From a virus, in UHGV virus genome UHGV-0119008: a stretch of DNA of 12,477 nucleotides; one strand, 5' to 3'. This document shows positions 1 to 3,000 of the stretch, in pieces. Numbering within the stretch: position 1 is the first letter of the stretch; the number at the start of each line of letters is the position of its first letter. The position numbers were made by a program.

Positions 1-3000
1 GGGCTTGTAATGGGTTAAGTGATAACAGATGTCTGGAAATATAGGGGCAAATCCAACTATCATGTATGCACAAAAATAAATTGAAAAGTACACCATGCAG
101 ATAGTTAGCAATTCTTTAGTATCTTTTCTGCTCACACCAACCCCCTTTAGCGTTGTTTAGAATGGCAATCATCATATATCCAAGACATGGCATTTGGTAC
201 ATAGCTTGGGTCGGGATTTCAAGTCCGCTCCCAGTTGATGGGGCCGTTACAGTACGCGCATATCCGCTTTATGTGAAACAGGAAGATTTTTCTGATATCA
301 CTGCCACAGCAAAACACCAATTTCGTGACCAGTACGCGCGCGAGGGGTATCAGTTGCAAAATTTTTTGCAACTGCGTCCGACCAGTACGCACACGATGGC
401 GGGGGATACCATAAAACTGTTCTCTACATGAGACAGAGTGGTGGTGATGTGTTGATTATCGGCGTATATGCGCACAGGACGCGCTATGACGATGTTTTAT
501 GCGGGTACACCAATCACATGTATCTGGTGTGATAAATCGCGTTACATGACCTCTCATGTTGTGCTGGTGGTTATCACGACTTTCTGAATCTGGCCTTTGC
601 CTGATATTTTGCGACAAGTACGCGCGCGTAGCATCGACAGCATACACATTGGATATTCATTTTGTGACCAATGCGATAAGTAGCGGGATAAGAATTGATA
701 AAATCAACAGGCCGATGATCCACTTTTGATTTTCACTGGCCTTATCTCTATTTTCATCAATCTTATCAATAATTCGACGCTCCAATCCGTGCATATCACC
801 GCGAATGGCAATCATCTCATTGCGAACATCAGGGAAGTGGTTGGCTTGATGTTCAATGTGTGGCGTTCTGCCTTTCATATCTGATCCTCACCTATCGTCA
901 CTACCTGCTGGTGTATAAAGGTATTGGCCCAAGCAACTTTCCAATGGGCACTCATGTTTATACGCTGACCTTACAATCAATCACTGCTTTTAGCTTTTCA
1001 GCATTGCTTCCCTGACGCTTCCACGCGCTGTAAATATCTTTATCCCACGCTTTACCAGCTTTTGTTTGATAGCCTGCTTCATTGATCCGTTCAGCTATCA
1101 CACGCCCATTATCAAATCCCTGTTGGATGGTATCGGCAATGATCTTTATAACTGCCGTTTCGTTATATGGTTTTGGTGGGATGTTCGGCTTTCCGGCAAT
1201 AAGCGACGCAGCGGCTTTTTCCATGCGCTCCACCAGCCCAAGCATTCGTGAATCAATAGACTTTTCCGGCTGCCCCAGCTTCATGCGAATCGCATCAACA
1301 AGCCAGGAGGTTTTATCTCCTCCAGAAGCGAGAACAGACCGATTAAACTCATCCTGCAATTCAGATGGGATGCGGAACGCGACCAGATTAGATTTGCTCA
1401 TTGCAAAGACCATATCAGTGAGTAATATCCATACAGTATACCACTGTATAACACTGTTATACGCTCAAATATCAGCCAGAAAATAACGGACCAATCACAA
1501 ATCTATCGCTGTGTTGTTGGTTCAGAGCTGGGCTGTGTTGGTTCAAAATGAGTTGATGTTGGTTCAATATTTCAGAAAAAACACAATAAAAACAACAATC
1601 TTTACAAATTGAACCAACTGAACCAACTGAACCAACACCTTTTTGCTTATCTATATAATCTGAGAGGCAGAAATGATAAGGGACAGGAAAGCTGAAGAGC
1701 TGGAGTCAAAAGGGCTATACCGGAGAGCTGCCGCACGATGGATGGAAGTCATGCTGTTATGCACCGAGGACGATGATCGGGAATGGATAAAGCGCCGCCG
1801 TGAAACGTGTCTGGAGAACGTGAAGCGCCCGCCCGTGAAGGTTGAGGAATTTGGCGACCTGCATAAAGCTGTTACCGAAACGCAACACCGCATGGGGATA
1901 GCGCAACCGAACGGTAACGCCTTCCGGTTAAATGGCGGCAAGAGGCAAAGGTAGACCACCAGAGGGAAATCATCCTCTGGCTGGCGGTTTCTGGTATTTC
2001 GGGACAAGTACGCGCGCGCGTAGCACCCAATCGGTGAGGAAATAGCGGCGACCTGAATGGTCAAAATCACAACGCAGCTATCCCCGTAAGCAGCGCTTAA
2101 CGGAATAGCAGTAACCTGAATCCAGTGGGGAGGGGGTAGTCAAATCTCTACAGCCCTGACTATCCGGGACTGCCCGCCCCATCGTTTTTTTATACCCGCG
2201 AAAAATGAAATTTAATCCGGGCGTGTTTCATTCTTCCAGAGGGTATGACGTATGACACCACGCGAAATAGCCTTATTGACCATCGCCAAACTTGAGCACG
2301 GAGGCCACCAGCTTACACAGGCAGATCAACGGGAGATAGAACGATCAGTTAATGCCGATATAGCCCGGCGCGACAGGTTCCGCGAAATGATGCGAGCACC
2401 TGCCTACCAGTGGAAGAAGCCAGCGCCGCGCAGGTAGATATGGGATTATTCCACATGTAACTTATGCGTATTAAGCAAATTTCCTTTATTCACCTTTACA
2501 GAATTGTGAGTACGTCAGTATCGTTATCCTTCCGATTCGCATTTATTCAGGATTTGCATGTACCAGCTAAAGATAACCATCCGAGACAGCAAACCACCTA
2601 TATGGCGGCGTGTGCTGGTTCCAGAGCAAATCCCCTTTAGTAAACTTCATGCCGTGATCCAGTTAGCTTTTGGCTGGAATGACGAACACCTGTATATGTT
2701 CGAGAAAGGGCGTAAAGGTGATCCAGGTAGCGAGTATCGCGTATGGGGTGAGGATGAAAGCATGGGTAACGCGGCAATCACGCCACTATGGGCGGCGCTC
2801 CAGAATGAGGGTGACAAGCTGGTTTACACGTATGACTTTGGCGACTGGTGGGATTGCGTCATTGTGCTGGAGAAGCAAACACACGATACGAGTAATCAGC
2901 CCATTAGCTGCCTGCGTGGGAAAGGCACCACCCCGGCGGAAAACTCAGGCGGCTTGCATGGTTACAATGAATTGCTATTACAGGCCAGAGAGTCTGATAA

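What the first reader, a model, noticed from the sequence alone, without database searches (positions are those of the whole stretch)
1431..1660. PerC-like activator gene preceded by six GTTGGTTCA repeats and overlapping operator palindromes
The shared promoter region between the RHH gene and the PerC-like gene holds two overlapping 7-bp-arm palindromes next to the RHH start, three GTTGGTTCA copies at ~21-bp (two-helical-turn) spacing, an A-rich spacer, three tandem inverted copies, and then a TATAAT hexamer just before the PerC-like SD. This looks like a dedicated switch controlling a virulence-type regulator, possibly by the adjacent RHH protein. I do not know of this repeat architecture being described for perC/pch loci.
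Basis: partly seen in the sequence, partly recalled or inferred. Interest (0 to 1): 0.5.

Follow-up and report, generated by a model that had tools for sequence, protein, structure and literature searches.

The report
Orphan half of a satellite replication origin
The six GTTGGTTCA repeats upstream of the PerC gene are most likely not an operator for the neighbouring repressor-like gene: they are binding sites (iterons) for the primase-helicase of a phage-satellite island and form a second, mirror-image copy of that island's replication origin, stranded here because this copy of the island has lost its primase gene.

Summary
There are six exact GTTGGTTCA copies in 121 bp (0.09 expected in the whole window), a 43-bp spacer of 19% GC, two small palindromes and a TATAAT.

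In intact relatives the same 9-mer, in the same layout (three tandem copies, AT-rich spacer, three spaced copies), lies immediately 3' of a Zn-ribbon/Toprim/DUF927 primase-helicase gene. That is the published position and architecture of a PICI replication origin.

The window array is a second, always inverted unit (U2). Across 59 related loci in Enterobacterales, U2 abuts the first unit (27 loci) or lies 0.3-9 kb downstream (13 loci). It always uses the same iteron type as the first unit. Iteron type tracks the last ~40 residues of the primase.

PerC follows U2 only in the E. coli lineage.

The palindromes are a separate module. They travel with the putative RHH gene even where no iterons are nearby, and they co-vary with its N-terminal strand.

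A conserved -10-like box after U2 suggests an outward promoter that the primase-helicase (Rep) might modulate. This is inferred only.

In this window the primase and first unit are absent, apparently through an IS1-associated deletion, so the array is an orphan.

Verdict: a new variant of a known kind, of moderate interest.

The parts
958..1401 (-). 147-aa gene ('RHH147'). It has a putative ribbon-helix-helix N-terminus and a confidently predicted small helical C-terminal domain. It is transcribed divergently from the array.
   Evidence: ORF and RefSeq CDS WP_024174049.1. No Pfam hit. 369 homologues in Enterobacterales, one of them named 'Arc-like DNA binding domain protein' by its source. AlphaFold model: helices 13-26 and 30-41 at pLDDT 48-71, C-terminal domain above 90. 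No significant fold match; Arc gives TMt 0.63 at E = 6.5.
1431..1462 (.). Operator-like element of the RHH147 gene: two overlapping palindromes built from ACTGT/ACAGT half-sites.
   Evidence: The element is found upstream of RHH147 homologues in 10 loci, whether or not iterons are nearby. Its two sequence classes match the two N-terminal strand classes, KSNLVAFR and KSLSVTFR.
1516..1566 (+). Three spaced iterons (TGTTGGTTCA-R) at 21-bp intervals. This is the inner half of origin unit U2.
   Evidence: These columns are invariant across 10 genera, while the sequence between the iterons varies.
1567..1609 (.). AT-rich spacer (19% GC) with a conserved AAAACAA...TTTACAAAT. It is the presumed melting region.
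   Evidence: The first origin unit has a spacer of the same length with a partly identical sequence (L001:6479-6521).
1610..1636 (-). Three head-to-tail iterons (TGAACCAAC x3). This is the outer half of origin unit U2.
   Evidence: The tandem set is the distal one, on the - strand, in all 13 displaced U2 arrays.
1637..1659 (+). Conserved ACCTTTTTGCTTATCTATATAAT: a T-tract plus a -10-like TATA box at a fixed distance from the last iteron. It is a candidate outward promoter with no consensus -35.
   Evidence: Conserved after U2 in most genera, across seven iteron types and regardless of which gene follows. The scan finds no sigma-70 consensus pair.
1673..1954 (+). PerC-family gene (93 aa).
   Evidence: Pfam PF06069, E = 3.7e-30. 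PHROG 994. RefSeq WP_000617443.1.
2122..2225 (+). cos site homologous to those of phages SfII, SfV, phiP27 and ST64B. The cohesive-end core is TGCCCGCCCC at 2171-2180.
   Evidence: Alignment to the annotated 10-nt cos of phiP27, 9 of 10 identical.
2252..3452 (.). Right-end accessory genes of the same island: a 61-aa ORF (2252-2437 +), a pRiA4b ORF-3 family gene (2558-3100 +) and a 119-aa ORF (3093-3452 -).
   Evidence: They are syntenic with U2 and cos in relatives.

Best explanation
The six GTTGGTTCA repeats are iterons, that is, binding sites for the replication initiator (a fused Zn-ribbon/Toprim/DUF927 primase-helicase, 'Pri-Rep') of a Gram-negative phage-inducible chromosomal island (PICI-type satellite).

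Together with the AT-rich spacer they form an origin-type unit: three spaced sites, a meltable spacer, and three tandem sites. This unit (U2) is the mirror image of the canonical origin unit (U1) that lies immediately 3' of the primase gene in intact relatives. In this family the origin is compound: U1 and U2 sit with their tandem triplets outermost. In many members the two units abut. In the E. coli lineage about 8 kb of cargo lies between them (ejection-protein genes, other ORFs and the RHH gene), so U2 has ended up next to perC and about 490 bp upstream of the cos site.

Inferred mechanism: Rep oligomers assemble on both iteron sets through the extreme C-terminal wing-like motif (QRKSPRI in GTTGGTTCA-type elements). 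They then either melt the spacer, making U2 a second origin, or pair with Rep bound at U1, making U2 a cis-acting enhancer like P4 crr. Rep sitting on the tandem triplet would also overlap the -35 position of a conserved -10-like box, and so may gate rightward transcription into perC and the cos-proximal genes.

The palindromes at 1431-1462 are a separate module, most likely the autoregulatory operator of the divergent RHH-like gene.

In this window the integrase-to-primase segment and U1 are missing (an IS1 lies at the junction). U2 is therefore an orphan site that could act only if a cognate Rep were supplied in trans.

Shown: sequence identity and architecture shared with the post-primase array, family-wide co-variation, and modular independence from RHH and PerC. 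Inferred: binding by Rep, origin or enhancer activity, and promoter coupling.
For: 1. In the intact E. coli relative L001, the same exact 9-mer occurs six times immediately after the primase stop codon (L001:6452-6562). The layout is three tandem copies, a 43-bp AT-rich spacer and three spaced copies. It occurs again at L001:14617-14737, which is the window array, and nowhere else in 29 kb as an exact match.
2. That position and design are the published PICI origin: two iteron sets flanking an AT-rich region just 3' of pri-rep, shown to be required for replication of EcCICFT073 (PMC6092414). The validated EcCICFT073 origin also holds about 12 iterons over about 230 bp.
3. The relative carries the PICI core: integrase, AlpA (PF05930), a Bro/Ash zone, and a primase with Zn_Ribbon_Prim, Toprim_3 and DUF927. 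It is about 20 kb, unidirectional, and inserted at yicC-dinD, a listed PICI att site. The helicase part matches PDB 8TCH, 'Pathogenicity island protein', at E = 5e-12.
4. Of 59 primase-linked loci from about 25 genera, 27 have U1 and U2 adjacent (9-12 iterons), 13 have U2 displaced by 0.3-9 kb, and 15 show only U1 within the sequence held. In every case with two units, U2 uses the same iteron type as U1, across eight iteron types. U2 is always inverted relative to U1.
5. Iteron type tracks the last ~40 residues of the primase. For example, L012-L015 are 90-96% identical to the E. coli protein further upstream, but carry QGRVRE instead of QRKSPRI and use TGTTGTCTC iterons.
6. Within U2 the iteron columns are invariant across 10 genera while the inter-iteron sequence diverges.
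7. U2 is independent of its neighbours. PerC follows U1, not U2, in Pantoea, Chimaeribacter, Lonsdalea and Rosenbergiella. The RHH gene occurs with its operator but without iterons in L025, L027 and L043.
8. A Lonsdalea pair differs by 5.8 kb of cargo inserted exactly between the two units.
9. The window's best genomic match shows IS1 between the integrase end and a truncated ejection-protein gene, with no primase. That genome has only one place matching the array region, whereas typical carriers have two.
Against: - No experiment links this Rep to these repeats. Binding, origin firing and promoter control are all inferred.
- U2 is not immediately 3' of the initiator gene, which is a stated hallmark of PICI origins.
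- About half of the adjacent-type U2 units have a GC-rich spacer instead of an AT-rich one. U2 therefore need not be a melting site in every member. This favours an auxiliary Rep-binding or regulatory role over a second independent origin.
- Identity between U1 and U2 could be maintained partly by gene conversion between inverted repeats and not by selection.
- The co-variation counts are not phylogenetically independent.
- The conserved -10-like box shows that transcription is also at stake here.
- In this window no cognate Rep gene is present, so the site may simply be a relic.
Confidence: 0.75

Rival explanations
1. U2 is only a Rep-controlled promoter or operator. The tandem iterons overlap the -35 position of a promoter whose -10 is the conserved TATA box. 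Rep represses or activates transcription of whatever gene follows (here perC). The array has no role in replication.
For: - The TTTTGCTTATATATA box lies at a fixed distance after the tandem triplet. It is conserved across seven iteron types and is followed within 15-40 bp by the start of various genes.
- There is no consensus -35, as expected for a factor-dependent promoter.
- Some U2 units lack an AT-rich spacer.
Against: - In the window-type U2 the whole origin design is conserved, not just the promoter-proximal triplet. The three spaced iterons and the AT-rich spacer with the same TTTACAAAT motif as U1 are also kept.
- A simple operator would not need six sites spread over 121 bp on both sides of a 19% GC spacer.
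- The two roles are not mutually exclusive.
Confidence: 0.15
2. One reading: the adjacent RHH protein binds both the palindromes and the GTTGGTTCA repeats, forming a dedicated switch for the PerC gene.
For: - The two genes are divergent and share a 271-bp intergenic region.
- The palindromes abut the RHH start.
- The RHH strand class co-varies with the palindrome class. This supports RHH binding to the palindromes only.
Against: - The repeats are identical to those after the primase gene and co-vary with the primase, not with RHH.
- U2 occurs without RHH next to it (L003, L004, L007, L012, L049). RHH with its operator occurs without U2 (L025, L027, L043).
- In most genera PerC follows U1 and is not downstream of U2.
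Confidence: 0.04
3. The array is a packaging accessory site (cosB- or cosQ-like) recognised by a terminase small subunit, because it lies about 490 bp upstream of the cos site in several lineages.
For: U2 precedes cos and the 61-aa ORF in E. coli, Lonsdalea and Serratia elements.
Against: - The same repeats occur right after the primase gene, far from cos.
- They co-vary with the primase C-terminus.
- The homologous cos region of phiP27 has no GTTGGTTCA within 1.5 kb, even allowing one mismatch.
- The distance from U2 to cos is variable.
Confidence: 0.02
4. The array is a non-functional relic. It is a duplicated origin fragment left by recombination between satellites, kept similar to U1 by gene conversion and without any activity of its own.
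For: - In this window the cognate primase is gone.
- Iteron arrays coincide with recombination breakpoints between related elements.
Against: - A second unit is present in at least 40 of 59 loci across many genera, always in the same inverted orientation.
- Its iteron columns are invariant while the interspersed bases diverge.
- That is the signature of purifying selection on the sites, not of decay.
Confidence: 0.04

Closest known systems
PICI/SaPI replication origins (EcCICFT073 ori; SaPIbov1 and SaPI1 ori)
   Same: - Short iterons in two sets flank an AT-rich stretch.
- The iterons are matched to a primase-helicase initiator encoded by an int-alpA-pri island that also carries perC and a helper-type cos site (PMC6092414).
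- The helicase part of the initiator is homologous to a solved 'pathogenicity island protein' (8TCH).
   Different: - The window unit is not adjacent to the initiator gene. It is a second, inverted unit up to 9 kb from the first.
- The iteron sequence (GTTGGTTCA) and the primase type (DUF927, 918 aa) differ from EcCICFT073 (TGTCTACC; 584-aa primase).
- I found no description of a displaced second unit in the papers searched.
Satellite phage P4 ori plus crr (cis replication region)
   Same: From my own knowledge (Flensburg & Calendar 1987; Ziegelin et al. 1993, 1995), with alpha and its ori site also mentioned in PMC6092414: a multifunctional primase-helicase recognises short iterons through its C-terminal domain. 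The iterons occur in two clusters several kb apart on a cos-packaged satellite, and both clusters act in cis in replication.
   Different: - The P4 iteron is TGTTCACC, and crr consists of direct 120-bp repeats, not a mirror image of ori.
- Homology between P4 alpha and this primase was not tested here.
- No functional data exist for U2.
Iteron plasmids (Rep autoregulation and handcuffing, e.g. P1, F, R6K, RK2)
   Same: Multiple Rep-binding repeats lie outside the minimal origin. Such repeats can titrate or pair Rep and overlap promoters.
   Different: - Here the initiator is a helicase-primase, not a Rep_3/pi-type initiator.
- The extra array copies the full origin design and does not lie at the rep promoter.
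Arc/Mnt operators of the phage P22 immI region
   Same: A small RHH-type regulator sits with an operator of short inverted or direct half-sites next to its start codon. It lies downstream of P22-like ejection-protein genes.
   Different: - The protein is 147 aa with an extra C-terminal domain.
- It has no Pfam RHH hit and no significant fold match.
- No antirepressor gene lies downstream.

Membership tests
PICI-type replication origin | [quoted passage not shown] | tested here: met
   Three spaced iterons, a 43-bp spacer at 19% GC and three tandem iterons, all six iterons exact.
PICI-type replication origin | Located immediately 3' of the pri-rep gene | tested here: not met
   The window has no primase gene. 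In intact relatives the window array is 8.2 kb downstream of the primase stop. The sister array U1 does meet this feature, lying 26 bp after the stop.
PICI-type replication origin | Iterons specific to the cognate initiator | tested here: met
   Tested by co-variation only. There are eight iteron types. U1 and U2 always share a type, and the type tracks the primase C-terminal ~40 residues.
PICI-type replication origin | Supports Rep-dependent autonomous replication | not testable with these tools
   This needs a plasmid maintenance assay like the one in PMC6092414 Fig. 2b.
Gram-negative PICI (the element as a whole) | int, alpA and pri in one rightward operon; 10-20 kb; specific att site; helper-type cos | tested here: met
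   Met for intact relative L001/L005: integrase, AlpA (PF05930, E = 2e-8), Toprim/DUF927 primase, about 20 kb between yicC and dinD, and a cos homologue. In the window itself only the right-hand part survives: U2, perC, cos and accessory genes.
Gram-negative PICI (the element as a whole) | Helper-phage-dependent induction, replication and packaging | not testable with these tools
   No experimental data are available. SfII/SfV/phiP27-like phages are candidate helpers from cos similarity alone.
PerC family (PF06069) | Match to the family profile above the curated cut-off | tested here: met
   104.5 bits against a cut-off of 22.6, covering profile positions 1-85 of 90.
Ribbon-helix-helix (Arc/MetJ/CopG) regulators | N-terminal strand-helix-helix fold that dimerises and reads DNA with the strand | tested here: inconclusive
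   - No Pfam hit and no PDB sequence hit.
- The model has the two helices at the right positions but pLDDT of only 48-71.
- Foldseek's best RHH match (Arc 1b28) has TMt 0.63 but E = 6.5.
- Supportive points: one source names a homologue 'Arc-like', and the strand class co-varies with the operator class.
P4 ori/crr system | Two separated iteron clusters bound by the primase-helicase C-terminal domain, both needed in cis | not tested
   The two separated clusters are shown. Binding and the cis requirement cannot be tested here. Homology to P4 alpha was not examined. This is a functional analogy only.
Sigma-70 promoter | -35 and -10 hexamers 16-18 nt apart | tested here: not met
   The scan finds none in 1300-2300. 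Only the -10-like TATAAT/TATATA is present and conserved.

The most novel reading that the evidence does not exclude
In this DUF927-primase family of PICI-type satellites the replication origin is a mirror-symmetric pair of Rep-binding units, and these units bracket the cargo/late-gene zone. On this reading the pair works as a P4-like ori/crr couple. Rep bound at the distal unit also gates a conserved promoter that reads into the perC/cos-proximal genes, so replication and late or virulence-regulator expression are coupled. The conserved iteron arrays double as recombination joints through which satellites swap or capture cargo, here including P22-type ejection-protein genes. The short C-terminal wing motif of the primase (QRKSPRI, QGRVRE and others) would form a simple, re-programmable recognition code for the iterons.
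Probability: 0.25. Interest if true: 0.6.

Novelty: new variant of a known kind. Interest (0 to 1): 0.4.

Why it matters
- **Annotation.** It reassigns an apparent 'virulence-regulator switch' to the replication machinery of a phage satellite found in about 7% of complete E. coli genomes. This is useful for annotation, because such arrays near perC/pch genes should not be read as perC operators.
- **A split origin.** In one large satellite family the origin is compound and can be split by kilobases of cargo. This gives a testable parallel to P4 ori/crr and a possible route for cargo capture.
- **A recognition code.** The comparison yields a clean natural protein-DNA specificity series: primase wing motif against iteron sequence, and RHH strand against operator. 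Both could be tested with a handful of EMSAs.
- **Possible crosstalk.** If Rep also controls the promoter in front of perC, satellite induction could feed into LEE regulation in pathogenic E. coli.

Tried and rejected
- **Rfam.** A scan of the whole window found no RNA family.
- **Promoter/terminator scan.** Nothing in 1300-2300.
- **Phage database.** A search with 900-2200 and 1950-2600 matched only the cos region. No phage carries the repeat array, apart from one weak 120-bp match in a Klebsiella phage that was not followed.
- **Literature, repeat sequence.** A full-text search for GTTGGTTCA/TGAACCAAC returned only unrelated primers and oligos.
- **Literature, element type.** Searches for satellites with DUF927 or ejection proteins, and for P4 crr, gave no description of this element or of a displaced second origin unit.
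- **PICI paper supplement.** The supplement of PMC6092414 does not contain the iteron sequence.
- **RHH protein.** A PDB sequence search found nothing. Foldseek with its model gave no match at E <= 0.001.
- **cos-accessory hypothesis.** Rejected, because the phiP27 cos region lacks the repeat.
- **Inversion hypothesis.** I considered whether perC's different position in E. coli and in other genera could come from inversion between the two inverted units. The intervening genes keep the same orientation in all loci, so this was rejected.
- **Not done.** I did not predict the structure of the primase C-terminus, because that sequence is not in the window and could not be submitted. I did not make a genome-by-genome count of orphan U2 arrays against those paired with a primase.
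Full report
**1. What is in the sequence**

- GTTGGTTCA occurs exactly six times in the window, all within 1516-1636. Three copies are on the + strand with 21-bp spacing. Three are head-to-tail on the - strand.
- Exact matches expected by chance in the whole window average 0.09. None of 200 shuffles reached six.
- The 43 nt between the two sets are 19% GC, against 41% for the window.
- Next to the start of the divergent gene (ATG at 1401, - strand) lie ATACAGT-N5-ACTGTAT and GTATAACA-N1-TGTTATAC.
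- TATAAT lies at 1654-1659, 13 nt before the PerC start codon.
- The downstream ORF is a bona fide PerC-family protein: PF06069, E = 3.7e-30.
- The upstream 147-aa ORF has no Pfam match.
- A consensus scan finds no sigma-70 promoter with both hexamers anywhere in 1300-2300.

**2. Where the window comes from**

- The 1.3 kb around the finding is 99-100% identical to many E. coli chromosomes.
- About 100 bp starting roughly 170 bp downstream of PerC (2122-2225) are homologous to the cos regions of phages SfII, SfV, phiP27 and ST64B.
- The annotated 10-nt cohesive-end site of phiP27 (CGCCCGCCCC) aligns with TGCCCGCCCC at 2171-2180.
- In an intact relative (E. coli O111:H8 7-54 11A; loci L001 and L005) the segment is the right end of a ~20-kb island between yicC and dinD.
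- That island carries, in order: integrase; an AlpA-family regulator (PF05930); antA/ash ('Bro zone') genes; a 918-aa Zn-ribbon/Toprim/DUF927 primase-helicase; P22-like ejection-protein genes; two leftward ORFs including the 147-aa gene; PerC; cos; and accessory genes.
- This is the published gene order of Gram-negative PICI satellites. They have int-alpA-pri and an origin just 3' of pri. Some encode PerC, they carry a helper cos site, and yicC-dinD is a listed attachment site (PMC6092414; PMC10111431).
- The helicase portion of the primase matches a solved 'Pathogenicity island protein' (8TCH) at E = 5e-12.
- In the genome that best matches the whole window, an IS1 lies between the integrase end and a truncated ejection-protein gene, and the primase is gone.
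- The right two-thirds of the window belong to another thrW-associated island.

**3. The key result**

- In L001 the region immediately after the primase stop codon contains the same exact 9-mer six times: three tandem copies, a 43-bp AT-rich spacer, then three spaced copies on the other strand (L001:6452-6562).
- The only other exact copies in 29 kb are the six of the window array, 8.2 kb downstream (L001:14617-14737).
- Read on the opposite strand, the window array matches the post-primase array base for base through AAAAGGTGTTGGTTCAGTTGGTTCAGTTGGTTCAAT and into the first half of the spacer.
- The post-primase array (U1) has the position and design that define PICI origins. The experimentally validated EcCICFT073 origin is likewise a ~230-bp field of about 12 iterons.
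- The window array (U2) is therefore a second, inverted origin-type unit.

**4. Family-wide comparison**

The primase was used to fetch 77 loci from about 25 genera of Enterobacterales. Of these, 59 had usable sequence downstream of the primase gene.
- Virtually all have an iteron array 26-60 bp after the primase gene.
- 27 have 9-12 iterons, that is, U1 and U2 side by side.
- 13 have a separate second array 0.3-9 kb downstream.
- 15 show only U1 within the sequence held.
- 4 are intermediate.
- Eight iteron types occur: GTTGGTTCA, GTCGGTTCA, TGTTGTCTC, ACGGGTTAC/T, GTGGGTTAT, ACTTATCCC, AGGTCGGGT and GGTCGGTTT.
- Whenever two units are present, they use the same type.
- The displaced unit is always inverted, so the tandem triplets are outermost.

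Iteron type follows the last ~40 residues of the primase.
- GTTGGTTCA elements share GML-PP-SGRGYQRKSPRI-GRQINVYVL.
- TGTTGTCTC elements are 90-96% identical further upstream but have QGRVRE in place of QRKSPRI.
- The other iteron types have other motifs.

Within U2 the iteron columns are invariant across ten genera, while the bases between them diverge. Together these patterns say that both units are read by the primase-helicase C-terminus and are under selection.

**5. Independence from PerC and from the 147-aa gene**

- Synteny mapping shows a common order: pri, U1, (PerC), a 53-aa ORF, variable late genes, (147-aa gene, leftward), U2, (cos), 61-aa ORF, pRiA4b-family gene.
- PerC lies directly after U2 only in the E. 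coli lineage. In Pantoea, Chimaeribacter, Lonsdalea and Rosenbergiella it lies directly after U1.
- U2 occurs with other left neighbours in L003 and L004.
- The 147-aa gene occurs with its upstream repeats but no iterons in L025, L027 and L043.
- A Lonsdalea pair differs by 5.8 kb of cargo placed exactly between the units, with homology breakpoints inside the arrays.

**6. The palindromes**

- Upstream of every homologue of the 147-aa gene there is a short repeat element of ACTGT/ACAGT half-sites.
- Two operator classes exist, and they match two classes of the protein's N-terminal strand.
- KSNLVAFR goes with ATACAGT(A/G)TAC(C/T)ACTGTATAACA(C/G)TGTTATAC (2 loci).
- KSLSVTFR goes with CAC(C/T)GTAAGACAGTGTAAGACA (8 loci).
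- This fits an autoregulatory operator read by an RHH-type strand.
- The fold itself is only weakly supported. The model has helices at 13-26 and 30-41 with pLDDT 48-71, there is no significant structural match, and Arc gives TMt 0.63 at E = 6.5. One database source calls a homologue 'Arc-like'.

**7. The TATA box**

- After the tandem triplet of U2, a T-tract and TTATATATA (here TTATCTATATAAT) are conserved across seven iteron types.
- Conservation holds regardless of which gene follows, and that gene usually starts 15-40 bp later.
- U1 lacks the box because it abuts the primase stop codon.
- I read it as the -10 of a rightward promoter with no consensus -35. Rep bound to the last iteron would occupy the -35 position.
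- This is inference. Nothing here shows transcription or Rep control.

**8. Mechanism and rivals**

- Best supported: U2 is a Rep-binding, origin-type unit of a compound PICI origin that has been split by cargo. It acts either as a second origin or, like P4 crr, as a cis partner of U1. In this window it is orphaned.
- Caveat against a universal melting role: about half of the adjacent-type U2 units have a GC-rich spacer. An auxiliary or regulatory role is therefore a serious alternative.
- Caveat against the selection argument: gene conversion between the inverted units could contribute to their identity.
- The RHH-controlled PerC switch, a cos accessory site (no repeats near the phiP27 cos) and a pure relic are all disfavoured by the comparative data.

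**9. Novelty**

- PICI origins, PICI-encoded PerC and PICI cos sites are all published.
- What I did not find described is the mirror-paired origin whose second unit can lie kilobases away next to perC/cos, or the wing-motif/iteron correspondence.
- I rate this a new variant of a known kind, of moderate interest.

Noticed in passing
window 2122-2225 (core 2171-2180): This is a cos site homologous to those of SfII, SfV, phiP27 and ST64B. TGCCCGCCCC aligns with phiP27's annotated cohesive-end site CGCCCGCCCC. The similarity suggests these HK97-like cos phages as helpers of the island.
   Followed up: partly
L001:7189-12357 (intact E. coli relative); truncated copy just left of the window in L002:9341-11446: The PICI-like island carries P22-type ejection-protein genes (DUF2824, gp20-like, and a gp16-like protein with a lytic transglycosylase domain). 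Its cos site, however, resembles SfV/phiP27-type phages. I did not find this cargo/packaging combination described.
   Followed up: no
L001:6300-6423 and equivalents in L007-L067: The last ~40 residues of the DUF927 primase-helicase form a short motif that tracks iteron sequence: QRKSPRI with GTTGGTTCA, QRKTPRI with GTCGGTTCA (L025), QGRVRE with TGTTGTCTC, and KKKALRKMGGKQH with (A/G)(C/T)GGGTTA(C/T). This is a natural specificity series.
   Followed up: partly
window 958-1401 and 1431-1462; L023, L024, L025, L027, L030, L043, L063, L064, L016: The N-terminal strand of the 147-aa protein (KSNLVAFR or KSLSVTFR) co-varies with two operator sequence classes. The protein also has a confidently predicted C-terminal helical domain (residues 78-135, pLDDT above 90) with no structural match.
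   Followed up: partly
L049:8696-8953 versus L016:12781-12892 and 18655-18777: Two Lonsdalea elements differ by 5.8 kb of cargo inserted between the two origin units, with homology breakpoints inside the iteron arrays. The arrays may serve as recombination joints for swapping cargo.
   Followed up: partly
L007, L008, L009, L012-L014, L025, L036, L043, L049 (second origin unit): A subtype of the second unit replaces the AT-rich spacer with a conserved GC-rich element (AAACCCAGTG-TGGCGCGGCCTG) that contains short inverted repeats. Its function is unknown.
   Followed up: no
window 3654-12425: This is a different thrW-associated island. It has a Phage_cap_E major capsid gene (10196-11224), an HTH protein (7406-8083) and many unannotated small ORFs, and it ends at an IS2 in the best-matching genome. 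It is probably another satellite remnant.
   Followed up: no
L004:8736-9158: In strain 2013C-4081 a diverged copy of the 61-aa ORF, which normally follows cos, sits directly upstream of the U2-PerC-cos-ORF61 block. The arrangement looks like two island ends joined head to tail.
   Followed up: no
L037 (Yersinia pekkanenii), arrays at -5712, -1130 and +51 relative to the primase match end: Three copies of the compound iteron field occur within 6 kb, and the primase match is over-long. This could be a tandem duplication or an assembly artefact.
   Followed up: no
L003:9001-9137 and 9138-9425: In E. coli ABU 83972 the U2 region is 97.8% identical to the window up to the PerC start codon. The PerC protein that follows is only 54% identical, which places a sharp recombination boundary at or just inside the gene start.
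   Followed up: no
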